A stretch of 64,000 bases of DNA from Lingula anatina (taxonomy: Eukaryota; Animalia; Brachiopoda). Below the pieces are notes generated by a model. The model saw only the letters and a program-made list of their open reading frames with translations, was not told where the DNA came from and did not search any database. Shown here one piece after another: positions 11,699 through 63,109 of this stretch; the stretch's first letter is position 1; each line of letters opens with the position of its first letter. The position numbers and the translations under genes were made by a program. The stretch is from contig CM120643.1 of the NCBI GenBank assembly GCA_051362555.1, forward strand, positions 7,378,001-7,442,000. The letters are read 5' to 3'.

Positions 11699-14600
11699 AC
11701 AAGGCAGCAAAGCTGTCAAATGTACAGACAAAAAGCAGGAAATAACTATGCACAAATTAGGCTACTGTCAATTCTGATGCAAAAGTACATTATGTTAAAC
11801 TGCAAATTCAACCTCAAGTTTTAATTATACTCAACAGGTAATACCAATGTAATTAAAATGTGTAACAAGCATAAGGCTTCAGGCCCATGGGATTTCAAGT
11901 TCACACTTTGCAAATATATAATTTCCAGAAAAAAAGCCAATGAGACTGCTTTTTCCAACTCAGGCTGCATTTTAGTCCTGTATTTCTTTTTTAAAAGTTT
12001 TGCAATCATAAGTAACATGGTTTTCCCATAATGGTCATCATAACAGCAGCACCCAAAATTGTGTTTTCTTTTATTCTGATGCAAATATAACATAATGGTT
12101 AACCGTCAATTTTTAATAATAAAATATACGTATCATGGATTTTCAGAAAATGTGACTAGCATGGGTCTTCATGAAACTTCAAAGTCACAACTTGAAAATG
12201 CCAAAATGGCCTATCTGTTTTTCTTATATTGTGTTTACAGTGTTGCATATATGCTGAAAAGTGAAAAAAAAGCATAACTACTAAAATAGTGGCCCAATCA
12301 TGCTGATTTTCAAATTTGACCTGTGTTTTAGTAAGATCGATTACTCCTGTGAGTTTCATGACAACAAGCCTATCGGTTTTCCTTGAAATGTGTTTACAGT
12401 GTTGCATATATGCTGAAAAGTGAAAAAACAACATAACTTCTACAATAATGGCCCGATCATGCTGATTTTCGAACTTGAACTGCGTTTTATGAATATTCAT
12501 CAGCTCTGTAAATATACAGCCAAAAAGTAAAACTGCCTTCTACTTATCGTGTTTACAATGAAAGTGCACGGCGCTGGCAACAGCGACAGTGACGACGGCG
12601 ATGACAGACACAGGTGATGGCAATATGTACAGACACATCTGTACATAGTTACTGTACAGTTTGAGAACAGTAAGTGACATGGTTTTTCTTAAATGGTCAT
12701 CATGGGTGCAGTACCCAAAATGGGTTTTTTCAAATTTTGATGCAATATTACATAATGTTAAACAGCATAATGACCATCAATTTTTAATAATAAAATATTA
12801 GTATCATGGATATTCAGAAAATGTGACTAGCAAAGGTCTTCAGGCCCATGGAATTTCGAAGTCACAACTTGAAAATGCCAAAATGTAAACAAGACAGCAC
12901 TGTTCTGAAATGTTTTTTTTTTTCCATTTTTAATTTTTTTAACATAAAACAAAATTAACAGGTTACTGCCATTTTTATACGATCAACTAAGGAAATTGAT
13001 AAGATGGGAAAAATATCAATACAACAGTGTTAAATGTCCAATTTCCTCCATTCTGAAATTCTGAACATAGTGAATGATTGAATCTGACAAACTGCAATGA
13101 TATGAGTTTATTTCCATTTTTGAAACTTTATTACACAATACACGATAACAAGTTTACCATCATTTTTACATAATCAACTAATAATGTTGTAAAGATGCAG
13201 GAAATGTCAACCAAACACTTTTACATGTCTTATTAGTTAAATAATGAGACTGTTAACATGCCTAAGAATTGAATCTGAGGAAATGTGAAACAAGACAGCT
13301 CTGTTCTGTCATGGGTTTATTTCCATTTTTAACACTTTTTTTAACATAAAACAAAATAAACAGTTTACTGCAATTTTTATACAATCAAATAAGAAAATTG
13401 ATGAGATGGGGAAAATATCAATAGAATAGTGTTAAATGTCTAATTTCCTCCATTCTGAGATTCTGAACATGGTGAATGATTGAATCTGACAAACTACAAT
13501 GATATGAGTTTATTTCCATTTTTGACACTTTATTACACAATACACGATAACAAGTTTACCATTATTTTTACATAATCAACTAACAATGTTGTAAAGATGC
13601 AGGAAATGTCAAACAAACACTTTTACGTATCTTATTAGTTCAATAATGAGACTGTTAACGTGCCTAAGAGTTGAATCTGAGGAAATGTGAAAAAACAGCA
13701 TAACTTCTAAAATAATGCCCCGATTATGCTGATTTTCGAACTCAACCTGCGTTTTAGTAAGATTGACCACTCCTGTGAGTTTAATGACAAATGGCTTATC
13801 TGTTTTTCTTATATTGTGTTTACAGTGTTGCATATATGCTGAAATATGAAAAAAACAGCATAACTACTAAAATAGTGGCCCGATCATGTCGATTTTCGAA
13901 CTTGACCTGCGTTTTAGCAAGATTGACCACTCCTGTGAGTTTCATGACAACAGGCCTAACTGTTTTCCTTAAAATGTGTTTACAGGGTTGCATATATGCT
14001 GAAAAGTGAAAAAACAACATAACTTCTACAATAATGGCCCGATCATGCTGATTTTCGAACTTGAACTGCGTTTTATGAATATTCATCAGCTCTGTAAATA
14101 TACAGCCAAAAAGTAAAACTGCCTTCTACTTATCGTGTTTACAATGAAAGTGCACGGCGCTGGCAACAGCGACAGTGACGACGGCGATGACAGACACAGG
14201 TGATGGCAATATGTACAGACACATCTGTACATAGTTACTGTACAGTTTGAGAACAGTAAGTGACATGGTTTTTCTTAAATGGTCATCATGGGTGCAGTAC
14301 CCAAAATGGGTTTTTTCAAATTTTGATGCAATATTACATAATGTTAAACAGCATAATGACCATCAATTTTTAATAATAAAATATTAGTATCATGGATATT
14401 CAGAAAATGTGACTAGCAAAGGTCTTCAGGCCCATGGAATTTCGAAGTCACAACTTGAAAATGCCAAAATGTAAACAAGACAGCACTGTTCTGAAATGTT
14501 TTTTTTTTTCCATTTTTAATTTTTTTAACATAAAACAAAATTAACAGGTTACTGCCATTTTTATACGATCAACTAAGGAAATTGATAAGATGGGAAAAAT

Positions 14601-15827
14601 ATCAATACAACAGTGTTAAATGTCCAATTTCCTCCATTCTGAAATTCTGAACATAGTGAATGATTGAATCTGACAAACTGCAATGATATGAGTTTATTTC
14701 CATTTTTGAAACTTTATTACACAATACACGATAACAAGTTTACCATCATTTTTACATAATCAACTAATAATGTTGTAAAGATGCAGGAAATGTCAACCAA
14801 ACACTTTTACATGTCTTATTAGTTAAATAATGAGACTGTTAACATGCCTAAGAATTGAATCTGAGGAAATGTGAAACAAGACAGCTCTGTTCTGTCATGG
14901 GTTTATTTCCATTTTTAACACTTTTTTTAACATAAAACAAAATAAACAGTTTACTGCAATTTTTATACAATCAAATAAGAAAATTGATGAGATGGGGAAA
15001 ATATCAATAGAATAGTGTTAAATGTCTAATTTCCTCCATTCTGAGATTCTGAACATGGTGAATGATTGAATCTGACAAACTACAATGATATGAGTTTATT
15101 TCCATTTTTGACACTTTATTACACAATACACGATAACAAGTTTACCATTATTTTTACATAATCAACTAACAATGTTGTAAAGATGCAGGAAATGTCAAAC
15201 AAACACTTTTACGTATCTTATTAGTTCAATAATGAGACTGTTAACGTGCCTAAGAGTTGAATCTGAGGAAATGTGAAAAAACAGCATAACTTCTAAAATA
15301 ATGCCCCGATTATGCTGATTTTCGAACTCAACCTGCGTTTTAGTAAGATTGACCACTCCTGTGAGTTTAATGACAAATGGCTTATCTGTTTTTCTTATAT
15401 TGTGTTTACAGTGTTGCATATATGCTGAAATATGAAAAAAACAGCATAACTACTAAAATAGTGGCCCGATCATGTCGATTTTCGAACTTGACCTGCGTTT
15501 TAGCAAGATTGACCACTCCTGTGAGTTTCATGACAACAGGCCTAACTGTTTTCCTTAAAATGTGTTTACAGGGTTGCATATATGCTGAAAATTGAAAAAA
15601 CAGCATAACTTCTACAATAATGGCCCGATCATGCTGATTTTCGAACTTGACCTGCATTTTATGAATACTCATCAGCTCTGTAAATATGAAGCCAAAAAGT
15701 AAAACTGCCCTCCACTTATCGTGTTTACAAGGAAAGTGCACGGCGCCGGCATCGGCATCGGCGACGGCGACGGCGACGACAGACGCAGGTGATGGCAATA
15801 TGTACAGACACATCTGTGTCTGTACAT
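11699..15827. mobile_element. Helentron-like (HINE) element with internal repeats and a 1586-bp tandem duplication, inserted into the satellite
   Basis: Starts acaaggcagcaaagctgtcaaatgtacagaca and ends with (gacggc)n plus the hairpin tgtacagacacatctgtgtctgtaca. The flanks rejoin to the satellite sequence gactta|aaatagttaaacg. Same family as 61168-63207. Confidence 0.75.
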
Positions 15828-18800
15828 AAAAATAGTTAAACGATAATAATTTTGTCAAATCTTGTCCACTATTTCTGAAATTTGTACAAATGATGCTTAA
15901 CAACAATAGAAATCTGTTATAAGATGATCAGTTGACTGTATCTAATGAAAAGTGATTTTTGGGACAACAAATTTGGGACAACTGAAATTTACATTGAGAA
16001 GACTGGTAAAACACAGGACTTTAAAATAGTTAAACGTTAATAACTTTGTCAAATCTTGTCCAATATTTCCGAAATTTGTACAAATGATGCTTAACAACAA
16101 TAAAAATCTGTGATTAGATAATCTGTTGACTGTATCTAATGAAAAGTGTTTTTTGGGACAACGTATTCGGAAAAACTGAAATTTACATTGAAAAGACTGG
16201 CAAATTCCAGGACTTAAAATAGTTTTAAAAACGTTAATAATTTTGTCAAATCTCGTCCAGTGTTTCTGAAAATTATACAAATGATGCTTAACAACAACAA
16301 AAATCTGTGATAAGCTGATCAAATGACTGTGTCTAATGAAAAGTATCTTCTTACGACAATATATTTGAAAAAACTGAAAATTACACTGAAAACACTGGCA
16401 AATTCCATGGCTTAAAATAGTTAAATGTTAATAATTTTGCAATGTGATTATAAATAAAATATCAAATGTGATGACTTGAGGTTGTGTGTGTAAGAGGTTG
16501 CAAATTACCTATAACTGTTATCTGGAAAACAATATATACCCATACAAGACTTCTCCTTACTATCAATGCCAGATACAGATAACTCCTTACAATGGGTTTC
16601 TGGAATGGGTTGTTGTTATCACAATATTTGACAATGTCCTTAATCTTGCTACATATCATGTATTGTACACATGGATAAGACATAGCGCTGCTCTTGGTGC
16701 TGTCTTTCAGTGCCTGCCTTTTCATGGTAATGGTACTCTGGAAAAAAGAACAATATAACTGAAAAAACTGAAAATTATATTGTAAAGACTGGCAAATGCA
16801 ATGACTTAGAACAGTTAAACGATAATAATTTTGTCAAATCTTGTCCACTATTTCTGAAATTTGTACAAAAGATGCTTAACAACAATAGAAATCTGTTGTA
16901 AGATGATCAGTTGACTGTATCTAATGAAAAGTGATTTTTGGGACAACAAATTTGGGACAACTGAAATTTACATTGAGAAGACTGGTAAAACACAGGACTT
17001 TAAAATAGTTAAACGTTAATAACTTTGTCAAATCTAGTCCAATATTTCTGAAATTTGTACAAATGATGCTTAACAACAATAAAAATATGTGATAAGCTGA
17101 TCAGTTGACTGTGTCTAATGAAAAGTGTTTTTGGGGACAATATATTTGGGAAAACTGAAATTTACATTGAAAAGACTGGCAAATCCCAGGACTTAAAATA
17201 GTTAAATGATAATAATTTTGTCAAATCTTGTCCAATATTTTATGAAAATTGTACAAATGATGCTTAACAACAATAAAAATCTGTGATAAGCTGATCAAAT
17301 GACTGTGTCTAATGAAAAGTGTTTTTTTGGACAACATATTTGGGACAACTGAAATTTACATTGAGAAGACTGGCAAAACACAGGAATTTAAAATAGTTAA
17401 ACGTTAATAATTTTGTCAAATCTTGTCCAGTGTTTCTGAAATTTGTACAAATGATTCTTAATAACAATAAAAATCTGTGATAAGCTGATCAAATGACTGT
17501 GTCTAATGAAAAGTATCTTCTTGCGACAATATCTTTGAAAAACTGAAAATTACATTGAAAACACTGGCAAATTTAATGGCTTAAAATAGTTAAATGTTAA
17601 TAATTTTGTAATGAGATTATAAAATAAAATAGCAAATGTGATGACTTGAGGTTGTTTGTGTAAAAGGTTGCAAATTACCTATAACTGTTATCTGGAAAAC
17701 AATATATACCCTTACAAGACTTCTCCTTACTATCAATGCCAGATGCAGATTACTCCTTACAATGGGTTTCTGGAATGGGTTGTTGTTATCACAGTATTTG
17801 ACAATGTCCTAAATCTTGCCACATATCATGTATTGTACACATGGATAAGACATAATGCTGCTCTTGGTGCTGTCTTTCACTGTCTGCTTTTCCATGGTAC
17901 TCTGGAAAAAGAAGAATATAACTGAAAAAACTGAAAATTACATTGAAAAGACTGGCAAATGCAATGACTTAAAATAGTTAAACGATAATAATTTTGTCAA
18001 ATGTAATCCAATATTTCTGAAATTTGTACAAACGATGCTTAACAACAATAAAAATCTGTGATAAGATGATCAGTTGACTGTATCTGATGAAAAGGGATTT
18101 TTGGAACAACAAATTTGGGACAACTGAAATTTACATTGAGAAGACTGGCAAAACACAGGACTTTAAAATAGTTAAAAGTTAATAATTTTGTCAAACATTG
18201 TCCAATATTTCTGAAACTTGTACAAATAATGCTTAACAACATTCAATATCTGTGATAAGCTGATCAAATGACTGTGTCTAATGAAAAGTATCTTCTTGCG
18301 ACAATATCTTTGAAAAAACTAAAAATTACACTGAAAACGCTGGCAAATTCCATGGTTTAAAATAGTTAAATGTTAATAATTTTGCAAATTGATTATAAAA
18401 TAAAATAGCAAAGGTGATGACTTGAGGTTGTTTGTGCAAGAGGTTGCAAATTACCTATAACTGTTATTTGGAAAACAATATATACCCATACAAGACTTCT
18501 CCTTACTATCAATGCCAGATGCAGATTACTCCTTACAATGGGTTTCTGGAATGGGTTGTTGTTATCACAGTACTTGACAATGTCCTAAATCTTGTCACAT
18601 ATCATGTATTGTACACATGGATAAGACAGTGCTGCTCTTGGTGCTGTCTTTCACTGTCTGCCTTTCCATGGTACTCTGGAAAAAGAAGAATATAACTGAA
18701 AAAACTGAAAATTACATTGAGAAGACTGGCAAATTCCAGGACTTAAAATAGATAAACGTTAATAATTTTGTCAAATCTTGTCCACTATTTCTGAAATTTG

Positions 18801-19434
18801 TACAAATGATGCTTAACAACAATAAAAATCTGTGATTAGATGATCTGTTGACTGTATCTAATGAAAAGTGATTTTTGGGACAACATATTTGGGAAAACTG
18901 AAATTTACATTAAAAAGACAGGCAAATCCCAGGACTTAAAATAGTTAAACGTTAATAATTTTGTCAAATCTTGTCCAGTGTTTCTGAAATTTTTACAAAT
19001 GATGCTTAACAACAATAAAAATCTGTGATAAGCTGATCAATCATCTGTGTCTTTTTTAAGTGTCAAGTATATTGGAAATTGATAATCAGAATAGTGAGAA
19101 TTAACCAAAAGAAATATTTCAGTACTGCAATGTATTATTTACTTTTAAAGAAAACAGCAAATGTGATGATTTGAGTTTATTTGTGTAAGAGGTTGCAAAT
19201 TACCTATTAATGTCATCTGTAAATCAATATATACCCATTCAAGACTTCTTCTTGCTATCAATGCCAGATGCAGATTACTCCTCACAATGGGTTTATGGAA
19301 TGGGTTGCCGTTAGCAAAATATTTGACAATGTCCTAAATCTTGCCACATATCACGTATTGTACACATGGATAAGACATACTGCTGCTTTTGCTGCTGTCT
19401 TTCACTGCCTGCTTTTTCATAGTAAGGGTACTCT

Positions 19435-23375: not shown

Positions 23376-25116
23376 TCATTGTGTTTTATTATTTTTATTT
23401 TAGTATAGTCCTATGCCTCCTAGTACAGTGTAGTAGTCTGCAGTCATTGTGTTCCATTGTGGCAGTATAGTCCTGTCTCTCTTAGCACAGTGTAGTAGTC
23501 TGGAGTCATTGTGTTCCATTGTGGCAGTATAGTCCTGTGCCTCCTAGCACAGTGTAGTAGTCTGGAGTCATTGTGTTCCATTGTGGCAGTATAGTCCTAT
23601 GCCTCCTAGCACAGTGTAGTAGTCTGGAGTCATTGTGTTCCATTGTGGCAGTATAGTCCTGTGCCTCCTAGCACAGTGTAATAGTCTGGAGTCATTGTGT
23701 TCCATTGTGGCAGTATAGTCCTGTGCCTCCTAGCACAGTGTAATAGTCTGGAGTCATTGTGTTCCATTGTGGCAGTATAGTCCTGTGCCTCCTAGCACAG
23801 TGTAGAAGTCTGGAGTCATTGTGTTCCATTGTGGCAGTATAGTCCTATGCCTCCTAGCACAGTGTAATAGTCTGGAGTCATTGTGTTCCATTGTGGCAGT
23901 ATAGTCCTGTGTCTCCTAGTACAGTGTAGTAGTCTGGAGTCATTGTGTTCCATTGTGGCAGTATAGTCCTATGCCTCCTAGCACAGTGTAGTAGTCTGGA
24001 GTCATTGTGTTCCATTGTGGCAGTATAGTCCTATGCCTCCTAGCACAGTGTAGTAGTCTGGAGTCATTGTGTTCCATTGTGGCAGTATAGTCCTGTGCCT
24101 CCTAGCACAGTGTAGTAGTCTGGAGTCATTGTGTTCCATTGTGGCAGTATAGTCCTGTGCCTCCTAGTACAGTGTAGTAGTCTGGAGTCACTGTGTTCCA
24201 CTGTGGTAGTATAGTCCTGTGTCTCCTAGAACAGTTTAGTAGTCTGGAGTCATTGTGTTCCATTGTGGCAGTATAGTCCTGTGTCTACTAGAACAGTGTA
24301 GTAGTCTTGAGTCATTGTGTTCCATTGTGGCAGTATAGTCCTGTGCCTCCTAGTACAGTGTAGTAGTGTGGAGTCATCGTGTTCCATTGTGGCAGTATAG
24401 TCCTGTGCCTCCTAGTACAGTGTAGTAGTCTGGAGTCATTGTGTTCCATTATGGCAGTATAGTACTGTGCCTCTTAGTACAGTGTAGTAGTCTGGAGTCC
24501 TTTTGTTCCATTGTGGCAGTATAGTCCTGTGCCTCCTAGTACAGTGTAGTAGTCTGGAGTCATTGTGTTCCATTGTGGCAGTATAGTACTGTGCCTCTTA
24601 GTACAGTGTAGTAGTCTGGAGTCATTTTGTTCCATTGTGGCAGTATAGTCCTGTGTCTCCTAGAACAGTTTAGTAGTCTGGAGTCATTGTGTTCCATTGT
24701 GGCAGTATAGTCCTGTGCCTCCTAGTACAGTGTAGTAGTCTGGAGTCACTGTGTTCCACTGTGGTAGTATAATCCTGTGCCTCCAAGTACAGTGTAGTAG
24801 TCTGGAGTCATTGTGTTCCATTGTGGCAGTATAGTCCTGTGCCTCCTAGTACAGTGTAGTAGTCTGGAGTCATTGTGTTCCATTGTGGCAGTATAGTCCT
24901 GTGTCTACTAGAACAGTGTAGTAGTCTTGAGTCATTGTGTTCCATTGTGGCAGTATAGTCCTGTGTCTCCTAGTACAGTGTAGTAGTCTGGAGTCATTGT
25001 GTTCCATTGTGGCAGTATAGTACTGTGCCTCTTAGTACAGTGTAGTAGTATGGAGTCATTTTGTTCCATTGTGGCAGTATAGTCCTGTGCCTCCAAGTAC
25101 AGTGTAGTGTGGAGTC
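23376..25116. repeat. 62-bp minisatellite, ~28 copies
   Basis: Unit gtcattgtgttccattgtggcagtatagtcctgtgcctcctagcacagtgtagtagtctgga repeats head to tail with point variants and no spacers. Confidence 0.97.
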
Positions 25117-28258: not shown

Positions 28259-28803
28259 GAGCGCATTCTCAACGAATTAAGCCAGGCTTTACAAAGCCGG
28301 TGACCTAAAAATGGCGGACGTACATGAAAGAAAAACCGCCTAATCTTTTAATAGTCTCTCCGCCTCTCACACGCCTCCCCACACATCGTCCCTGCGGGGT
28401 ACAGTAATTAAATCTCGGCTCCAAACATTAATATTTCCGTGAATATCTCTGGTGATATTATCTCCGTAGATAGTCGATTCATTGCTGCTCTACGGGCCAA
28501 ATTATTCCCTTTTCGTCTCTGTTTTCAAAGATAATAGAACAGAAGAGCTTTTTTCCTTCGATCGCCTTCAGCCGCCATGCTTTCTTCACCACGAGTTTAA
28601 CTGATGAGCATGCGCACTTAATATTTCTCAGGTTGCTTCCGCATGGCGAACGGAGCCGAGATTTAATTACTGTACCCCGCAGGGACGACGTGTGGGGAGG
28701 CGGAGAGACTATTAAAAGATTAGGCGGTTTTTCTTTCATGTACGTCCGCCATTTTTAGGTCACCGGCTTTGTAAAGCCTGGTTAATTCGTTGAGAATGCG
28801 CTC
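28259..28803. mobile_element. MITE with ~150-bp near-perfect TIRs and 3-bp TSD, inserted into an exon
   Basis: gagcgcattctcaacgaattaa...ttaattcgttgagaatgcgctc; TSD aaa. Removing it restores the exon gatatcaaagacacaaagagt (DIKDTKS). Confidence 0.9.
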
Positions 28804-33900: not shown

Positions 33901-33956
<56 letters not shown>

Positions 33957-34080
33957 CGAAAATTGGGCATAACAGTCAAAATATCCAGAAGTAAAAATAT
34001 TTCAAAATTTAAAATCTTCTTGGTCACTACGATTCCTCGTCGTGGTGGTTCACGGGGAAATTTTTAAGATAACTTGTAAT
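32411..34080. repeat. ~1.7-kb diverged direct repeat, copy 2 (contains a ~53-nt poly-T at 33902-33954)
   Basis: Collinear with 3587-5275. Confidence 0.85.
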
Positions 34081-34322
34081 TGTATAAATTGATAACGCGC
34101 TTCTTAATAATGTTCGTGATTAACAAGTAAATTACGCTCAAACTTAAAATCGCCTTGCGTCTAAATTACATTTTTCATTAGACAACTAACTTTTTGGATT
34201 GTGTCAGAATGAGTTTTTTTTGTCTACTCTTACTGTTTAAGTGCAGAAAATAGGCTCACCTTTTTGTTGTAAATAAACTCAAGATTGATAAAGCAACAAG
34301 TCAAGTTGGAAGCATTTGTTTA

Positions 34323-34571
34323 TTTTTTTTTTTTTTTATTATTGACACAATACATCACGAATACATGACAATACAAAAACAAACAAACACTCGCTCACAC
34401 ACTCACACATAAAATATATGTTATACTATATAACACTTTTTAATTAATTACATCGTCGTACGCTAAATATTCAAATTGAAAATAACTTAATTATATTTGA
34501 ATTGTACTGACAGATTGACTTATCTGTTTTCACCAGATATCTAAGCGATGAAATCAAACCTCCTAATGTTG
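34323..34571 (-). mobile_element. 3' end of the L1/Tx1-like LINE whose upstream part lies at 63557-64000
   Basis: Minus strand reads (P)TLGGLISSLRYLVKTDKSICQYNSNIIKLFSI*, continuing ...YIYIRRCSQGKPT from 63557. Followed by a GT-rich UTR and poly-A (poly-T at 34323-34337 on +). Confidence 0.85.
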
Positions 34572-35011
34572 CAGCCCGGGAGCCACCGGTCTGCCGCTAG
34601 GTGGCTTTTAACCAAACCGGAAGTTCTAGAATTTGAATTGCGTGCATTTTTGTGAAATTTATAGGGTGTCAGAAACGGTAGAATATCTCGAGTACTAAGG
34701 GTATGAGAGTCTTATTATGTATACTATGGAATCCCAGGAGGGCCAAGTGAAATTAAAAAAAAAAAATTAAATTGAAAAAAAAAAGTGAAATTAAAAAAAA
34801 AAAAAATTAAATTGAAAAAAAAAAATTTTTTTAAACTTTAATTGAAAAAAAAAAAAAATGCAATATCGCGCGATCTCCCGCGAGATCGCGCGTAATCCTG
34901 CGTGGCCACGTGAAATCCCGCGATACCAAGCAAAGTTTATTTCAAAAGGAAATCAAGAAAAAGAGAAAAAAAAAATCACGATATCTCACGAGAAATTGCG
35001 AGAATAGAAAC

Positions 35012-38000
35012 ATGGCGGAGGAAGCCACGATGTGTTTAAAATGCCAACATTGCACGGACTATGAACAACAGGCTCACATTCCCATTTGTAAATCATGCGG
35101 ATGTGATAAAATATTGCACGTAAGTTGTTTTCTCTTTATTCTTTATGCAGATGATAGTGTGACGTATAGTATTATTAGTGAATCAAGGACGAGTCGGAGT
35201 GTCCTCTTGAGTCTTATTTCTTTACTATTACTAGTATTAGAACACCGGTTAAATAAATATGCCGCCTTTCCTGACACAGTGACACTGACTGGTTTTGCAA
35301 ACGTCTTCATTAGGCATTAAACTTATATTACATACATGTACATAAATTTACAGTATTTTTCATTAGACTTCCTCGAAACAATTATTAAACCACACGTGTA
35401 CAGTTCCCGTTAAGGATAGGAAGGTTGAAAGTAATGCTTTTCATTTGTAATTTACGTTTGTAGAGTGTCGTCGGTGCTTGTAACAAAAGGCAATGTCAAT
35501 GTCCAGGATACCGAAAAATTAGAACCATCAGACATTGTGTCAACTGTGGGCACTTGCCCATGGATCACGACTTCAAATTTGGTGAGCAAATTCAGTGTTT
35601 GACTTTTTCAACATGGATCTACCAAGTTATTTGTGTTAAAATACAATAAGAATTGAAATAGTTTCATATATGATATTAATTGAAATATTTCTTAATTCTT
35701 GGGCTTCAATTTGTCAATTCAAATAATAGTTATTTTATGAGAGCATGAAACAGAAGTTGATTTAATTAAGAAAATATAAAATATAAATCATAAAATTGAA
35801 TTAGGTGGATTTAGCCTGTATAATTTATCTTAAATGTTGAAGCACACATCTCCAGTGTTATTATCAAAGCTTATCTTTGGGCTACAAATTATGAAATATC
35901 ACTGTAATTCTGACTGTTATTCATATGTAATTGGCACTGGAAGAGAAATCTCAGAAAAAATTCACATCCATTTTGTAATAAACAAAAGAGCATACTAAAT
36001 GAAATTGCCTTATAATGTATGTGTGCTTAATTGTATGTCTTATAAGTCATCTATAGTCTGTCATTGCTTCATGTAAAAAATTCATTTTATTTTTGAATTC
36101 CAGATTTAAAGGTTTTCCTCAACAATCTAGTGGAACGTAATAAAAGCAATGCTTTGATATTAGAATATTTAAAGGACATTGGTATTACCTGGAGGTAAAT
36201 ATTTTTGTGTAGAATTCTTTGTGGCAACAAATGCTTATTTATAATTGCTTTTTTGTAGAGAAATCTTTGTGTCAATCAATGTCATGTTTAATTCTTATTG
36301 TTAGTGAAGCTCATTGCTTATTGCCCACGTCAAGTCTTTTCTTGGTGACAAACTTAACTATTAATTGGACAGCTGCTGACATCACTGGATAGGTTTTTTT
36401 TTTTTAATGATGGCTTGGACTCCTGGAATTTTTGTTGAAAATTACAAGTGGTGATTTTAAATGGCATGAATCCCCAGAAAAGTCTTGGCCCGTGTTATCA
36501 TTTTCATATAGATTCCCATAAAAATCTGCAAAATCCTATTGCATGAGGGGTGAACTTTAAAGTTGTCAGCTCACTGAATATCTTAAAGCGGGTAATAAGT
36601 TCAGAAAGGATCTAATTATAATTAATTTTTTTTTCACTGTCAGTGAAAGAACCCTCAAGAGAAGGTTAAATGTTCTTGAAATCAAGCGACATGAACATGT
36701 CCCTGTCCAAGAATTAAGGGTAAGCGATAATTTTGATGCTGCCTACTTTGAATCAATCTGTATGTTGAAATAATATCTGTAGTATTTTGATCACTCAAGT
36801 CTTAGAATAGAGGAGATGGCATAAATACACCAACCAACCAGTACAGTACTAGTATATAGATATGTCTGATAGAGAGTCTGTTACAATCCAAAACTTAATC
36901 CCCCTTGTACAAATAAAATAAAAATATTGACATCTTACAATGATTTATATTTCCAATCATAATTTAATAAGGTTAAATACATAATAAATGGTCATTTTAA
37001 TGTGTGAGTCATATCTTTTTATGTAGGATATTATTCAACAAGAAGTCGTTGTTTGTGGGGGACTGGCAGGTGTAAGGCGAATATATGATCAGTGTCGCCA
37101 GAAATATCACAAGAAAGTAAAAAGGTTAGTTAAGTAAAGGAATAATTTTTGCAATTAAGCAGTTAATTAAAAAATGAAAGTAATAATCTATATTTGTTTC
37201 ACTTCTATTAAATTATATTATTCTGTTACTCTATCCTAAGAATTGATGTGCAAGAGATATTGCGTGAAGTTGATCCTGAAGGTCGGAAACTAAGGATACG
37301 AAGGGCTTTAAATCGACGAGTTTTTAAATCACAGGTAAATATTATTTTTATGTATAGACACAGAGACCTATCTGTCTTGATCATTTAAGCCATGCACTTT
37401 CAGCGATAACACAATATGTGGAAAACTATTTAGTCTTAAACCCTTTTCTGGTCACAAAAAATTGCCAAGTCATCATACTGTCAGTTTCAACTAACTTAAG
37501 ATTATAGAAAGATAATTGTATGATGGAGCCACTTATCAGTAAAAGTTGTTTGATTCGTTCATTTGAGGAATGTATCAGTCAGATTGTTCACATGTATATT
37601 CTTTCAAAATGACATTTAATTTTATGTTTTCATATGATGATATCAACTATTTCTTTTCAGGGACCAAATTGGATTTGGTCTGTGGATGGTAATGACAAGT
37701 TGCAGTTCTTCCATATTTACATACATGGATGCATTGATACATTTTCACGCAAGATTTTGTGGTTACATGCCAACACTACAAATAAGGATTCTAAAGTAGT
37801 GGCTAAATATTTCTTTGACACTGTGAAGACTTTAAAAGGTAAGAATCATTTAATCCTTAGTTAAAGTGGTAACCACTACAGAATAATCTTGCTTTCAACA
37901 TTTTCAATGCTTTTCCATATTTCTGATATTATTAATTCCAAAATCCTGAGTTTATATAATTGATTTTACCCTACTTAGAACTGTCCACATACTCACACAT

Positions 38001-39694
38001 GGCACCACAAAACCAACCAGCAGGCAAACGGCATTGCTTCTACGTTGATCCACCAAAATTGAATTACTGCAGACACTGTGCAGATACATGTATATAATGT
38101 ACTGTTTTAAGTAAAAGCCAATTTGAAAAATTCTATCCCTTATCCAACAAAACACTACCTGGTTTAAAAGAGTTTACTAGTATTATCCATTTCTGATTTT
38201 GCCATTGTAATATACTAGTTTGGGGTATATTTCAACACTTCTTAAACATCTGTGCTAATAGTTACCGTTTTTTAATAGTCTGCCCTAATAGAACTAGAAG
38301 TGACCCAGGGACAGAGAATGTAGACTTAATTGAATGCCAAATGTTCCTAAGAAGAAATGGCAGTGATCAGCATGCTTTCTCCAATAGTCACATCATGGGG
38401 CCTTCACCACTGAACCAGGTATGTAAATTTCTTATTATATTTACCCATTTGTCACAAGGATGTCTATTAAAGCCTGTAGTTCGATCACGCACTATTCTGA
38501 TGTCATGCATTTATTTCAGAAAATAGAGTGTTTCTGGTCAACTTTCCTAAAGAGAGTTTTAATCCGTTGGCAGGAAGAATTAATGGTAAGTTTATTTCTT
38601 TTTGGTAGTTTCTGCTTTTCCCAGTCATTTAACTCCCGTATATTCTAGGATTCATTAGGATAATGGAGAGTTTCTTAAACATCCCACTAACAACATGTTT
38701 ACGACAAAATATGTTTTTGATAATAAACTGGTTATTATAAGTAAGAAAAGGCATTTCCATTACTCATGGATAAAATGGTTTATATTATTAAAGACTATTT
38801 AGTTCAGAAACTCCCAAACAGCATTTCTTCCAAAATGTGCACAGATTAAAAAAAATTGGTAGGTCATACTTATTATGATTAAGGAATGTTTCCTTATATG
38901 ATGATAATAGTACCTTAACAGTGATTTACAAATAAATAAATAAATAATAATAGTAAATATTATGGTTTATTTGTCAAATTAGTTTCTAGTTATGTAATAT
39001 CATAGAATGACTGATAAATTTACAAGTATTATACTTTTCAGGGTTTGCACAGAGATGGTTGGTATGACAGACACAGTTGCATTGACAAGTGGTGCATGGT
39101 ATTTGTTTACTTGCCTCTGATACAACATGATATAGATGCATTTCAACTGTGGTGGAACAACCACAAAATAAGACACCAAAGGCAGGTGTGGTTACCCACT
39201 GGTGCTGCTCCAAATGACATTTATGCATTTCCACATTTATATGGTAAATTTGGCAATTTCAGTTACATGTTTAGCATATAAAAGATTGAAATATTTAAAA
39301 CTTAAAACATTTTTGTAATAATCTTTTACTTTCAATATGAACATGTAGTCAATTTAACACATCACCATGTTCTTGTGGCATTGGCTATGTGACTAAATGG
39401 AACAACTGGCTTAAGGTAAATCAACCTACATATTTTATGCAATATATATTTGCAGGCGGTCACCAGTGTGGATTCACTGTCAGTGATAGAGATTTGGCAG
39501 AAGTTGCACGAGAAAAAACACTGAACTATGAACAATTTGCTCGTGTGCCACAGGACTTCTATAATGAAGCAACTAACTTCACTGCCACTAACCACTTGAC
39601 AATTGAAATATCCACTGCAGCAGAGTGTTATATTCAACTAAGGAGACACTTCATCCTAGAAAGATCTGCATTACAGTCATCTATATATGTGTAA
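35012..39694 (+). CDS. DDE (integrase-core) transposase, 11 exons, ~469 aa, apparently intact
   Basis: Exons 35012-35119, 35464-35581, 36104-36194, 36644-36719, 37027-37124, 37241-37334, 37661-37838, 38279-38418, 38520-38585, 39042-39243, 39456-39694 (1410 nt, all GT-AG, in frame). Motifs: SERTLKRRL (HTH-like), VDPEG, GPNWIWSVDGNDKL..IHGCIDTFSR, RSDPGTEN, NQKIECFW, WNNHKIR. Confidence 0.93.
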
Positions 39695-40989
39695 AATGTA
39701 ATATTAATGTTTCTGCACCAACCTGCAAATTCCAAATTGCTGTACAGGAAAAAAGAAAATAAAGAATCACAAAAGAGGTTATTTTCCTCTTTTTGATACA
39801 TTAATACAATGTGCAACAGGCTACACAACCCATTTTTATGAAACCACAAGACTAAAAGGTAAATTGGTTTTCCCTTGATGGTGTTATCTCTTTATGCGCA
39901 TGGTGATCCTGGTGTCACACCTATGTCAGTACATAAAAATTCAACCACTTTTAAATAAACTTGACAATACATATAATTCAAAGTCTCTATCCCAGCATAG
40001 CTGTCAAAACTACAAAAAAAAGGATAAAAAAAAATGCACAAAGTAGGTAACTGTCAATACTGATGCAAAATACAGTATGCTTAACAGAAAGTCGACAGCA
40101 TTGCAAATATATGTCTGTTAGGAATATGTTACTAGCAGACCCATGTCACTTTAAATTCACAGTTAAAATATACCAGCAAGAGAAATATGAACATTCAAAT
40201 AAAAATGCATAAATTTTAGAAAAAAAAAAGCAATCAAGCTGGGTTCCCAATTTGATCAGTGCTTAAGGATTATTATTGGACTTTCAAACTAATATGTCAC
40301 TGTTTTTTCTTTATAATGTTACTATTGGCAGTGCACAATTTTTTTTTTTGCCAAATCTGATACAATTTTACGGAATGATACAACCTTGAACTGTCTAACA
40401 TAATAGTATAATGTATAAAAGGTCACTGCCATTTGACTTCATGCCTTTGGGGGTTAAATCCCTGAATAAAAATGCCAATATTTAAAAAATATAGAACACA
40501 CATAGAAGGCAGTCAAACTGGTGCAAGTCTAGGTACAATTCAGACCAAGAACCCTTTCAGTAGGTTTGACAGCCACGAGTAGCATGACTTTAATGGCCAT
40601 TAAGGTGAGAGTGACCAAAATTTATTTTCCCTCACTTTTGATCTATATTACATAATGCTTAAGAGCATAATCACCACCAATTCTTAATTATGCAATGCAG
40701 TTAAAATGGTATTTATAAAAAAATTAATTAGCAAAGGTATTCAGGCCCATGATATTTGAAAATTCCACTATGTACACAAGTGAGAACTATAACTAATGAG
40801 TTTACTTCCATTTTCAACAATTAAGTAAATAATAAAAACGGCACAACTTTAATAAAATTGTCCAATCATTTTTGATTACCAGTTTACGCCTTCCTATTCA
40901 AGTTCAGTAGTAACAATGGGTGTATCTCTGCTAATTTTGGTGCATTTTACATTTTATTTTCACGTCTGAATATTGGATGTTGAAATATT

Positions 40990-41462
40990 TGATACAGAAC
41001 AATGCCCGAGCCCTAACGAAAAAAATAAAAAATAATACAAAAAAACCTGCAGTGTTGCACATGCAAAGCTCTACAAAATGAAAAAAAAAAAAAAAACAAG
41101 GTCTCTAGCAATGATGGTTCCAGAATTAGAGAGTTTTTAGTTTGGCATCTAATAGCCACTACTCGACTGAAAATGCCCCAATTGACCCCAAACTCACAAA
41201 GATGAAAGATTACCCTAAGGGTAACACCTGCCCATTATATTATAGATTAGATCTGTGTAGTTTCTGAAAATATGCAATAATAACTGTTTTTCACAAGAAA
41301 GTTAGCAATTTTAGAAAAATGTGACCTGTTTGACCTTGAAATAATGTTCTAGGAGGAGAAGCGGTAACGGTGACTTGTAGTTCACGACACCCTGCAGAGC
41401 CATATGAGATAGGTCGGGACAAAAGCCATGAATACTGCCAGCGTACATGCTGGTGGTACTAA
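40990..41462. mobile_element. Truncated Helentron-like remnant between the two convergent genes
   Basis: Similar to 42800-43518 (ctaggaggagaagcggtaacggtgactt; gccagcg...gctggtggtac hairpin). Confidence 0.55.
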
Positions 41463-41472
41463 AGAGTTGTTT

Positions 41473-58055
<16,583 letters not shown>

Positions 58056-58200
58056 GCTTTTTTTTCTCGCACTTTCTCGCGAGATTTCGTGTTTTTTTTT
58101 TCAATTTCATTTTGAAAATGAAACAGATTGATCTCTCGGGATTTCGCGCGACCACGCGGGATTACGCGCGATCTCGCGAGATTACACGCGATCTAGCAAA
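58056..58200 (-). promoter_or_regulatory. Putative CpG-rich promoter inside the right TIR; mirror copy at ~34860-35011 on +
   Basis: TCTCGCGAGA palindromes at 58075-58084 and 58172-58181 lie just upstream of the kinase ATG. Variants (tctcacgaga at 34984, cccgcgagatcgcgcg) lie upstream of the transposase ATG. Confidence 0.55.
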
Positions 58201-61167
58201 TTTCGCTTTTCGTTTTTTTTTTCGTTTTTTTTTTTTTTTTTTTTTTTCAATTTCGCTTTTCGTTTTTTTTTTTTTTTTTTTTTAATTTTTTTTTTCGCTT
58301 GGCCCTCCTGGGATTCCATAGTATACTGTCATCTTTAGAAATAAATTTCAAATGATGTGAGATGTTCCTCGAGTTGATCTAAACCATATTTTGTGTTCAA
58401 AAGTGAATTTGAAATCGAAGTTTTACCAAAGCTGTAACTGGAGTTCAACTTTACCTCTAATGCTTGCATTCTTAGAGAACAGGTTCCAACTTCGAATTAT
58501 CAGTAAGTTGTGGCAAATTTATTCAGCTTTCTGCCAATGTAAGCATGTAAGGAACTTTACCGTTATCCAGGAATGGCACAAATCAATTCACACCCGTGTA
58601 TGTAAAAAAATCGTACTTGCAACAACCGTAAGCCAGCCTCGTTTTGACTTAGTACATTCTTGTTATATTCTAACCTCGTTTTGAATTCCCCACCCGCACA
58701 ATATTTTCTATATAGAGAAGAGAAGCTTGCACAGGAAGAATGGAGGAAATGAACATTTCATTTCTTTTGGCAAATAAGCATTTATCTATTACACGAGGCC
58801 ACCCGCTGCCAGTTTCTTTTTATTGAAAGACTAATAAAAACAAAACAAACAAGACTTTTATCAACTGAATTTTTTTTTTTTTTTACATATGAACAACTAT
58901 ATAATATTTAAAACATAATATCATCAACAAAAATATCAATATTGTGACAGCCAACAGGAATTAAAGCTGATGCAAATATACATGTATATTTGTGGCAAAA
59001 ATTATTTTTTACTTTTGCAACACATTGATATGGCAATTATATTTTACACTTCTTGATCATAACATAGAGTTATAGCCACAGGACACACTACTCCTTTTAA
59101 AAACAGGATCAATATAAACAATATATATAATTTCATAAATTTACCTGGAATCAGCAATTTATTTCACTGATACCAGTTAGTCCTGTACCAGTCTATATTT
59201 TCATTTGAATTTATTTTGTAAGTGTCATAGTGGTGATTTCACAGCCAAACTTCATTTAAAAACTTGCACATTTAATTATATTACATGAAACTGTTAATGT
59301 ATTTTATTCATTAGAAATAACTGTAACCAAGTTTTAAAAGCATGTTTTCAGTTTTAAAAGGATTAATTAACTTCTGAGCTTCTGTCATAATTGCCAGGAA
59401 TGGCAAAATGATTAATCCTGGTCCCTTTCATGTTCTTCAAGCCTAGAAAAATATTAGATTAAAACATTAAAAAGTTTGAAAAGGTAACATTCAAAAACAT
59501 TTTTACCTGCATATATCTTTACACACACACAACAACAACAACAACAACAACACACACTAAAATCAGCATAAATAATAAACCACAATCTTGATAATAGGGA
59601 AGCTGGTATCAATCAATTTATCTAAAATAGTACTCTAAAAGTGTATCAATATTGAAGTCTACAAACTACAGTGTTCACAACTATAATACACTATAAAACA
59701 AAGGAGTTTTGTTAATATAATGTTCTTTTTTTCATGAAACATTTTCCCCTCACATACTTATAACCCATGTGTTGTGTGTGTGGGAGATTTTAAACAAAAC
59801 TAAACTGTTCCTTCTAACAAAAAATTGCCTATGATATGGCTATCACAATTTGAAAACATATACACAATGTTATAGCACTTGGCATTTTATGATGCACAGT
59901 ATGTATGTACGTATGCAAATGGTCAACAAATGGGGGTAAAAATGTAATAAAACTTATTTTGACTAACAAGTTTTCCCCCATATTGATATTGTACATTTGT
60001 ACCCTGCCAAAGAAGCAAACATGTTAAAAGTCAAAATTTGTTATTCATATTTTTGAAAAGATGCTTGTGGTTGGTTTTCAATTTTGTATCTTTCACAACT
60101 ATAATTTACAAGCATGTGTGGCCCCACACTCACCCCATGCACACACATGCAGGGCAGATAACATTGCTTTTCACTGACATCAACATCCAACATAAATAAA
60201 TCGACTTTCCCACACCTTGGACAGGGACCACAAGGAAAACACATGGGTAAATGTCCTAGCTAAGCTTTCTCTTGGGCATGATATATTATTCAATTTATGA
60301 TAAAATAAAAAATATGTTCAAGTGATATATACCAATAAATTGATATGAAAAGCTACTTACTACTTGGCAATGTACATGTATATTCAGCTGTGGAACACTG
60401 ACATCTTAATTGTTATAATACAAGCCTTTGAACTGTCAACACTTTAGGTCACTGAAAGTATAAAAAGGTAGATAAAATATTGAACCTATTATTTATTGGG
60501 CATTCTTGTACATGATAATAATAAATAACTGATAAATATTTTCTATCAGTTTATACAAGTTTCAATCCTTTTTCATGGAAATTTCAAAATATTACTTTTT
60601 TTGTTTTTTTTTTCATCTTACTTAAATCAAAATGCAAATAAATAGCATGAAAAGGATAATGCAGAATATCTAAAAAATGGCTTTTACATCCTCAAAAGTG
60701 ACCTATCCCCCTCTCATAATATATCTATCTATACAGAATCAAGTATACTACATGTCATTTCGCGGGCCATTTCTGTTAATAAACATCAAAGCACAAAAAA
60801 AAAGCATAAGAAGGCAAATTCTCAATATTTTATTGTGACATTCATACAAGACATGAGGCAAGACTGCCCCCACATTCACTCTACTGTGATCGCCCCAACC
60901 ACACACACTGTGATTTCATGAAGTATTTAATCTAGTTAACTTCAAAACACCAAAAAATTGCATGAAAATGCAAAAATTCAATATTAAACTTCGACATTCA
61001 TTCAAGATGTAACACAAGACTGCCCATGTAGTTACTCGGAACATTGCAAAATATACTACCTGTCGGAAATGTAGAAAATCGATAAGTTACAGGTTAGGTT
61101 CCTACCTAAATTTTTTACCTGTTCAAAAACATATGTCAAACTATTAAAAAAACTGAACAGATAAAGA

Positions 61168-61634: not shown

Positions 61635-63109
61635 AAACAGACTGCATTGCCTACTGAAGCTGTATTTTAGTCCCATGTTTCTTTCCTGTAAGTTTGAAAA
61701 CAGTAAGTGACATGATTTTCCTTAAATGGTCATCATGGAAGCAGTGCCCAAAATGGGAGTTTCTTCAAATTTTGATGCAATATTACATAATGTTTAACAG
61801 CTTAATGACCATCAATTTTTAATTATAAAATATTTGTATCACAGATATTCAGAAAATGTGACTAGCAAAGGTCTTCAGGCCCATGGAACTTCAAAGTCAC
61901 GCCTTGATAATGCCAAAATGTAAACAAGACAGCACTGTTCTGAAATGGGTTTATTTCCATTTTTAACACTTTTTTAACATAAAACAAAATAAACATTTTA
62001 CTGCCATTTTTATATGTCCAACTAAGAAAATTGATGAGATGGGAAAAGTATCAATAGAAGTGTTAAATGTCCAATTTCCTCCATTCTGAGATTCTGAACA
62101 TAGTGGATGATTGAATATGACAAACTGCAATGATATGAGTTTATTTCCATTTTTGACACTTTATTACACAATACATGATAACAAGTTTACCATGTTTTTT
62201 ACATAATCAACTAACAATGTTGTAAAGATGCAGGAAATATCAAACAAACACTTTTAGGCATCTTATTAGTTAAATAATGAGACTGTTAACATGCCTAATA
62301 ATTGAATCTGAGGAAATGTGAAAAAACAGTATAACTTCTTAAGTAATGGCCCGATTATGCTTATTTTCGAACTCAACCTGCGTTTTAGTAAGATTGACCA
62401 CTCCTGTGAGTATAATTACAATTGGCCAATCCGTTTTTCTTATATTGTGTTATCAGTGTTGCATTTATATTGAAAATAGTGAAAAAACAGCATAAATTAC
62501 CTAAAAGTGACCCGATCATGCTGATTTTCGAACTTGACCTGTGTATTATGAATATTCATCAGTTCTGTAAGTTTCAAGTCAAAAGGTAAAATGGTGTTCC
62601 ACTTATCGTGTTATCGGTGCTGCATATATGCTGAAAAAAGTGAAAAAACAGCATAAATTCCCTAAAAGTGACCCGATCATGCTGATTTTCGAACTTGACC
62701 TGCGTTTTATGAATATTCATCAGTTCTGTAAGTTTCAAGTCAAAAGGTAAAATGGTTTTCCACTTATCGTGTTATCGGTGCTGCATACATGCTGAAAAAA
62801 GTGAAAAAACAGCATAAATTCCCTAAAAGTGACCCGATCATGCTGATTTTCGAACTTGACCTGCGTATTATGAATATTCATCAGTTCTGTAAGTTTCAAG
62901 TCAAAAAGTAAAATGGTTTTCCACTTATCGTGTTATCGGTGCTGCATATATGCTGAAAAAAGTGAAAAAACAGCATAAATTCCCTAAACGTGACCCGATC
63001 ATGCTGATTTTCGAACTTGACCTGCGTATTATGAATAGTCATCAGTTCTGCAAGTTTCAAGTCAAAAGGTAAAATGGTTTTCCACTTATCGTGTTATCGG
63101 TAAAAGTGC

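What the first reader, a model, noticed from the sequence alone, without database searches (positions are those of the whole stretch)
34725..58320. 23.6-kb IS3EU-type transposon carrying an apparently intact spliced protein-kinase gene opposite an intact transposase
Seen: perfect 23-bp terminal IRs, a perfect 6-bp TSD, an in-frame 11-exon DDE transposase (+) and a convergent in-frame ~16-exon kinase (-) retaining GxGx[17 protein letters not shown] and APE. Known: IS3EU elements have TAY..RTA ends, 6-bp TSDs and a second, poorly characterised ORF. Inference: here the second gene is a signalling kinase that moves with the element. I do not know of kinase cargo described for this superfamily, but could not search. 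It may be a kinase-bearing mobile system that regulates transposition or acts on the host, and a route for kinase-family expansion.
Basis: partly seen in the sequence, partly recalled or inferred. Interest (0 to 1): 0.92.

Follow-up and report, generated by a model that had tools for sequence, protein, structure and literature searches.

The report
Brachiopod transposon carrying its own kinase
A 23.6-kb cut-and-paste transposon, probably from the brachiopod Lingula, carries an intact classical protein-kinase gene facing its transposase gene; related elements hold a ubiquitin ligase or another kinase in that position, so this little-studied group likely keeps a protein-modifying enzyme as a standing partner.

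Summary
In detail: perfect 23-bp terminal repeats, identical 6-bp flanks, an 11-exon DDE transposase (469 aa) and a convergent 17-exon kinase (727 aa), both stop-free. Database proteins labelled Lingula anatina match both models at 99.6%.

A kinase partner is not new: rust-fungal IS3EU elements carry an opposite-strand alpha-kinase (PMC12730594). What differs is the class, a classical Ser/Thr kinase with predicted Ig-like domains.

I took 81 loci with related transposases (61 clusters). Of the 30 clusters with at least 1.5 kb downstream, the convergent gene is a HECT ligase in 16, a classical kinase in 2 and uncalled in 12. One of those kinases shares three intron phases with this gene.

So the kinase is very probably the element's own second gene. 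It is not a MAP3K1 orthologue, as RefSeq names it, and not a recent host capture.

Not shown: a second kinase-bearing copy in this genome, RNA support for the full splice, kinase activity and substrate. Verdict: new variant of a known kind.

The parts
34719..34724 (.). Left target-site duplication (6 bp, palindromic)
   Evidence: identical to 58321-58326
34725..34747 (+). Left terminal inverted repeat, 23 bp, TAYGG-type start
34725..35064 (+). Left subterminal region, 73% similar to the right end; A-tract, CpG-rich block (putative promoter) and first ~20 transposase codons
   Evidence: score 154 vs shuffle maximum 28 without the A-tract; CpG o/e 2.27
35012..39694 (+). IS3EU-type DDE transposase, 469 aa; exons 35012-35119, 35464-35581, 36104-36194, 36644-36719, 37027-37124, 37241-37334, 37661-37838, 38279-38418, 38520-38585, 39042-39243, 39456-39694; D204-D263-E304; Cys-rich N-terminus
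41473..44603 (-). Kinase domain exons 14-17 (44603-44429, 44221-44104, 43700-43596, 41913-41473); classical Ser/Thr kinase with all catalytic motifs
42062..43517 (.). Repeat-derived insert in kinase intron 16, bounded by a 14-bp inverted repeat; related repeat DNA also at 40870-41459
44863..47546 (-). Kinase gene exons 7-13 (47546-47475, 47373-47290, 47107-47050, 46373-46269, 46013-45921, 45346-45080, 44898-44863): linker and a region predicted to be Ig-like
   Evidence: Ig is a lead only (score 0.83, 10 of 10 best family hits in the Ig clan; no Pfam hit)
47720..52431 (.). Nested 4.7-kb element in kinase intron 6: CAC-type 13-bp inverted ends, matching 3-bp flanks, no Pfam hit
52632..52709 (-). 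Kinase gene exon 6 (acidic Ser-rich linker), between the two long introns
   Evidence: present in P0002
56360..58055 (-). Kinase gene exons 1-5 (58055-57923, 57589-57492, 57155-57060, 56766-56578, 56395-56360): Cys motif shared with the transposase start, basic stretch, beta-rich domain of unproven fold
58000..58320 (-). Right subterminal region with CpG-rich block (putative promoter) and the kinase start codon
   Evidence: CpG o/e 2.65
58298..58320 (-). Right terminal inverted repeat, 23 bp
58321..58326 (.). Right target-site duplication

Best explanation
This is a complete IS3EU/GingerRoot-type DNA transposon with an intact DDE transposase and an intact classical Ser/Thr kinase facing it; the kinase is very likely the element's own second gene and likely helps the element persist by phosphorylating a nuclear target such as the transposase or a host silencing factor. 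Shown: the ends, the flanking duplication, both open spliced frames, the catalytic motifs, both genes starting inside the two homologous ends, and the same position being filled by a HECT ligase or another kinase in relatives. Inferred: each CpG-rich end is an inward-firing promoter; the transposase binds the ends and inserts the element with a 6-bp stagger; the kinase (no membrane segment, basic stretch near its N-terminus) acts inside the cell. My odds: kinase belongs to the element about 0.85; it acts on transposition or silencing about 0.5.
For: (1) The kinase start codon lies in the right subterminal repeat, homologous to the transposase start in the left one. (2) Relatives have the same convergent layout: HECT in 21 of 81 loci (17 of 61 clusters), classical kinase in 3 of 81 (L021; L036/L056; 2 of 61 clusters). 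L041 holds its HECT gene between perfect 16-bp ends; L021 has a left end 4 mismatches from this one over 19 nt. (3) L056's kinase has introns in phases 2, 0, 0 like this gene, two at the same codon, and one last exon for subdomains VII-XI. Its transposase (L036) is the nearest row to this one by tree path. (4) No host-type orthologue: apart from the two self-matches, the best 150 hits among 1.84 billion representatives are 25-40% identical, with one 52% hit over short stretches. (5) Fungal IS3EU elements carry an opposite-strand alpha-kinase. (6) Large insertions sit only in introns while 17 exons stay open. (7) Transposase fragments about 95% identical are annotated on two further contigs of the same species.
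Against: No second kinase-bearing copy is seen among this species' database proteins, and the genome could not be searched. In L021 and L036/L056 the right end is off the contig, so those kinases are shown adjacent to a transposase, not enclosed. One origin of the three kinases is unresolved (one clade in 28% of bootstrap trees, AU p 0.49, long-branch warning). Their transposases fall in two places (0% of bootstrap trees as one clade, AU p 0.18), and the window-L036 branch is weak (87/29 and 87/48). The N-terminal module of the HECT genes does not detect this protein's N-terminus (HMM score -0.5, below shuffles; hhalign probability 0.2%). RefSeq splits the gene in two. No substrate evidence exists.
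Confidence: 0.65

Rival explanations
1. The kinase belongs to the element by descent but works for the host, or this copy has been domesticated, for example in immune or stress signalling through the Ig-like region, and no longer moves.
For: Only one kinase copy is annotated. Long nested insertions have piled up in its introns. Both gene bodies are CpG-depleted (o/e 0.34-0.44), as expected by recalled knowledge for long-expressed, methylated invertebrate genes.
Against: The ends and the 6-bp duplication are perfect and the transposase is intact, which points to a recent insertion. Near-identical transposase pieces lie on other contigs.
Confidence: 0.17
2. One-off capture of a host kinase gene by an IS3EU element (Pack-type), now a neutral passenger.
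For: GingerRoot elements capture host fragments with introns (PMC6839031, passages). The gene is intron-rich, and most relatives carry HECT, not a kinase.
Against: The captures described there are 84-1,654-bp fragments 79-98% identical to a parent gene, mostly in elements without a transposase. Here the gene is whole, has no close parent among database proteins, begins in the element's own end, and has counterparts beside related transposases.
Confidence: 0.1
3. Composite structure: two inverted IS3EU left ends happen to bracket a resident host kinase gene and supplied it with a new first exon.
For: The right end resembles the left end through the first ~20 transposase codons; the 6-bp flank is a palindrome.
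Against: Long end-to-end similarity is also seen in a HECT-bearing relative (L041, about 470-500 nt). The flanks are identical direct repeats and by eye read as one interrupted sequence.
Confidence: 0.08

Closest known systems
IS3EU/GingerRoot superfamily (Repbase; PMC10045372 passages and supplement alignment passages; PMC6839031 abstract and passages; PMC8232023 passages)
   Same: TA..TA ends, 6-bp duplication, integrase-like DDE core whose motifs match the IS3EU-1_CGi and IS3EU-1_DR rows printed by eye, two proteins.
   Different: 23.6 kb with 28 exons; second gene is a classical kinase; end similarity runs into both coding starts.
TET+ IS3EU families of rust fungi (PMC12730594; passages, section 4.1 in full, two supplement rows)
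   Same: TAYGG..CCRTA ends, 6-bp duplication, a kinase gene opposite the transposase.
   Different: Their kinase is an alpha-kinase (unrelated in sequence to classical kinases; recalled) and they carry TET/JBP. Here the kinase is Pkinase-type with no alpha-kinase or TET hit.
HECT-ligase-bearing IS3EU relatives (loci; also earlier unchecked scan notes)
   Same: Related transposase (up to about 42% identity), convergent second gene, long similar ends in L041.
   Different: Enzyme is a ubiquitin ligase with a predicted ubiquitin-like N-terminal module and UBX; homology of that module to this kinase's N-terminus was not detected.
MAP3K1 (RefSeq name of XP_013415561)
   Same: Ser/Thr kinase domain.
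   Different: No other Pfam domain; best solved-structure matches are STK11, STK24/25, ULK2, ASK1 and RAF, none close (E 1e-25 or weaker). The name looks like a best-hit label.

Membership tests
IS3EU/GingerRoot | TA..TA termini (TAYGG..CCRTA) with terminal inverted repeats | tested here: met
   definition
IS3EU/GingerRoot | 6-bp target-site duplication | tested here: met
   (one site; palindromic)
IS3EU/GingerRoot | Integrase-like DDD/E transposase with intact triad | tested here: met
   rva_4 E 9e-35; D204, D263, E304 conserved
IS3EU/GingerRoot | Transposase groups with Repbase IS3EU entries in a tree | not tested
   only compared by eye with alignment rows printed; no tree included Repbase entries
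IS3EU/GingerRoot | Two proteins, second gene opposite the transposase | tested here: met
   definition
IS3EU/GingerRoot | Dispersed copies with different flanking duplications | tested here: inconclusive
   transposase fragments on two more contigs; no DNA or flanks available
Fungal alpha-kinase-bearing IS3EU | Second gene is an alpha-kinase | tested here: not met
   Pkinase and PK_Tyr_Ser-Thr, no alpha-kinase family at E up to 10
Classical (ePK) Ser/Thr kinase | Gly loop, VAIK Lys, helix-C Glu, HRDxKxxN, DFG, APE, subdomain IX Asp, XI Arg | tested here: met
Classical (ePK) Ser/Thr kinase | Measured phosphotransfer activity | not testable with these tools
   needs an assay
MAP3K1 orthologue | SWIM and RING domains, about 1,500 aa, high identity to animal MAP3K1 (features recalled) | tested here: not met
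Pack-type gene capture | Gene fragment 79-98% identical to a host parent, usually without transposase | tested here: not met
   whole gene, intact transposase, no parent among database proteins; the genome itself was not searched
HECT-type IS3EU second genes | Shared ubiquitin-like N-terminal module | tested here: inconclusive
   best alignment lands on residues about 97-129 but is not significant

The most novel reading that the evidence does not exclude
IS3EU is a two-gene system whose partner position has been filled at least three times by unrelated protein-modifying enzymes (HECT ligase, alpha-kinase, classical kinase), all acting on the transposase or on host silencing. The classical-kinase versions form a mobile kinase lineage that has seeded orphan kinase genes across animal genomes, where they are mis-named as MAP3K-like host genes.
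Probability: 0.3. Interest if true: 0.8.

Novelty: new variant of a known kind. Interest (0 to 1): 0.55.

Why it matters
The second IS3EU protein is called poorly characterised in print. Finding a ligase in most relatives, an alpha-kinase in fungi and a classical kinase here points to one testable idea: these elements bring their own enzyme to modify the transposase or the host's silencing machinery. An intact element with a conventional kinase is the easiest version to test, because kinase-dead controls and phosphoproteomics are routine. It also warns that some orphan 'MAP3K-like' genes in invertebrate annotations may be transposon genes.

Tried and rejected
Whole-genome copy search: no genome held. 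RNA evidence: no runs were obtained, so splicing rests on sequence and database models.

Homologue searches with the last kinase exon and with residues 40-450 returned only the self-match. The single-sequence fold of the 727-aa protein was uninformative (pLDDT 32). Exon 12 against solved structures gave one chance hit.

The eye-level resemblance between the kinase N-terminus and the HECT genes' ubiquitin-like module failed both tests. That module itself folds at pLDDT 92 with ubiquitin-like top matches, none at E of 0.001 or better. Atlas hits for residues 1-185 were unnamed clusters at 0.86-0.87, a lead only.

The transposase plus kinase residues 60-180 complex job gave no verdict and is not evidence either way.

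Viral collection: nothing usable (L081, a 10-residue match, was dropped). The genome behind L082 had three rva_4 matches and no kinase hit in the four loci checked. Rfam: 0 matches in the window. Pfam on 82 flank and intron frames: nothing over a cut-off. The bacterial promoter scan is irrelevant here. The first kinase tree timed out. The Kojima 2019 review is not held.

Rejected: MAP3K1 orthology, alpha-kinase identity, and chance origin of the ends.
Full report
Observation. The element runs from 34725 to 58320 (23,596 bp). Its ends are a perfect 23-bp inverted repeat, flanked by an identical palindromic 6-mer. The 23-mer occurs nowhere else in the window and never twice in 100 shuffles. An 11-exon transposase (469 aa, +) and a 17-exon kinase (727 aa, -) are stop-free with GT-AG introns throughout. 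The transposase is Pfam rva_4 with D204-D263-E304 conserved in 55, 54 and 51 of 55 aligned rows. The kinase has every classical catalytic motif.

Independent gene models. The protein collection holds both proteins, those with a name under the label Lingula anatina. P0006 is 469 aa with 2 substitutions. P0002 is 727 aa, colinear, with 3 substitutions; it carries no species name itself but clusters with the named 513-aa model. RefSeq places transposase and kinase on one 868-kb contig but splits the kinase into 222-aa and 513-aa models, so the join across introns 5 and 6 is unconfirmed. The small differences suggest the window is another allele or copy. Two transposase fragments about 95% identical lie on two other contigs, so the family has several copies. 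No second kinase copy appeared in three searches. The genome and RNA runs were unavailable.

The two ends are 73% similar over about 340 nt. Without the A-tract the match scores 154 against a shuffle maximum of 28 and covers both start codons and about 20 codons with a Cys motif. Both ends are CpG-rich (o/e 2.3 and 2.7) while the gene bodies are depleted (0.34-0.44), which fits inward promoters (inference). The kinase protein has no membrane segment (maximum 19-residue hydropathy 1.25) and a basic stretch at about 60-90. Residues 275-440 look Ig-like, as a lead only. A 4.7-kb nested element and other repeats enlarge its introns without touching exons.

Relatives. A scan of metagenome contigs confirmed 379 relatives of the transposase among 595 candidate stretches and kept the best 80. 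One more came from the genome collection. These 81 loci form 61 clusters at 90%. I scanned opposite-strand downstream frames with Pfam: 132 of 153 long frames, leaving out L046 as a duplicate of L045, then 128 of 314 further frames plus 6 others. Local profiles were run over all frames. HECT ligase was found in 21 loci (17 clusters; three are weak in Pfam at E 0.007-0.01 but strong with the local profile). A classical kinase was found in 3 loci (2 clusters: L021 and L036/L056). No alpha-kinase hit appeared in the frames scanned. Of 30 clusters with at least 1.5 kb downstream, 16 are HECT, 2 kinase and 12 uncalled. L041 encloses its HECT gene in perfect 16-bp ends, though its flanks differ, and its ends are similar over about 470-500 nt. 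L021 shows a left end like this one. No kinase locus shows its right end.

Origin of the kinase. L021's kinase is 32% identical and has no intron in the domain. It ranks 8th of 425 domain hits for this kinase, and this kinase ranks 1st of 430 for it, in a set made of this kinase's own best hits. They pair in trees with weak support (84 SH-like; 63/72). L056's kinase shares intron phases 2, 0, 0, two at the same codon; whether host kinases often share these was not tested. One origin for all three kinases is neither shown nor rejected (AU p 0.49). The kinase-linked transposases fall in two places (AU p 0.18 for one clade). A swap of second genes between lineages is therefore plausible but unproven. 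The HECT genes' ubiquitin-like module does not detect this protein's N-terminus.

Mechanism. Shown: structure, intact frames, recurring layout. Inferred: the transposase mobilises the element through its ends and leaves 6-bp duplications. The kinase is transcribed from the right end and phosphorylates a nuclear target that favours the element, either the transposase or a silencing factor. The main argument is that three unrelated protein-modifying enzymes occupy the same position. No substrate evidence exists. Host domestication is the main rival.

Literature. PMC12730594 (passages, section 4.1 in full, two supplement rows) states that TET+ fungal IS3EU elements have transposase and alpha-kinase genes in opposite orientations. 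PMC10045372 (passages and supplement passages) gives TA..TA ends and 6-bp duplications. PMC8232023 (passages) says IS3EU encodes two proteins and is poorly characterised. PMC6839031 (abstract and passages) describes fragment capture, with no mention of kinase in the main text. PMC10853768, PMC9587614, PMC11645255 and bioRxiv 2021.09.26.461848 (passages) add nothing on element kinases. Searches turned up no paper on a classical kinase or a HECT ligase in IS3EU; most listed papers were seen only as listings. Repbase entries, the Kojima 2019 review and unread supplement parts could hold such a description. Earlier unchecked notes of this scan report HECT, alpha-kinase and one Ig-plus-kinase IS3EU; these are leads, not support.

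Verdict. A real, intact element and a new variant of a known kind: kinase cargo is in print, while the classical-kinase form was not found in print. Interest 0.55.

Noticed in passing
window 38520-38585 (transposase exon 9): RefSeq isoform X2 (P0003) and P0007 lack residues 302-323, the in-frame exon holding catalytic E304: a possible splice-made inactive or repressor transposase. X2 and X3 also differ from X1 at four last-exon residues, hinting at a second nearby copy in that assembly.
   Followed up: partly
window 47720-52431: Nested 4.7-kb element with CAC-type 13-bp ends and matching 3-bp flanks, CpG o/e 0.94, no Pfam hit; EnSpm/CACTA-like by recalled features.
   Followed up: partly
window 33902-34724 and 58321-58760, minus strand: The flanks read by eye as one decayed frame through the insertion point, followed by a 53-base A run; the element may sit in an old retro-copy. 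One weak PHD hit (E 0.003, under cut-off).
   Followed up: partly
L060:7473-8885 minus: Convergent gene beside an IS3EU transposase with a repeat linker and a C-terminal domain of about 120 aa with no Pfam hit: possibly a fourth kind of partner.
   Followed up: no
L056:1254-2718 minus; protein P0085: This element-linked kinase has HQD in place of HRD and lacks APE; an axolotl protein among the hits (P0085) shares HQD and DLG and is its highest-identity row at 29-32%.
   Followed up: no
L026:296-3180; L047:6398-9902; L050:4461-7965: Short IS3EU copies with both ends and a deleted or truncated second gene; L026 has a matching 6-bp flank.
   Followed up: no
window 9896-19052, 23402-25108, 62314-63101: Tandem arrays of 194, 402/160, 62 and 161 bp units, unrelated to the element apart from short repeat matches in its intergenic region.
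   Followed up: no
window 5848-8277 and 28282-28781: Two further inverted-repeat pairs (136 nt at 91%; 85 nt at 100%); the first encloses Tc1/mariner-like fragments by eye.
   Followed up: no
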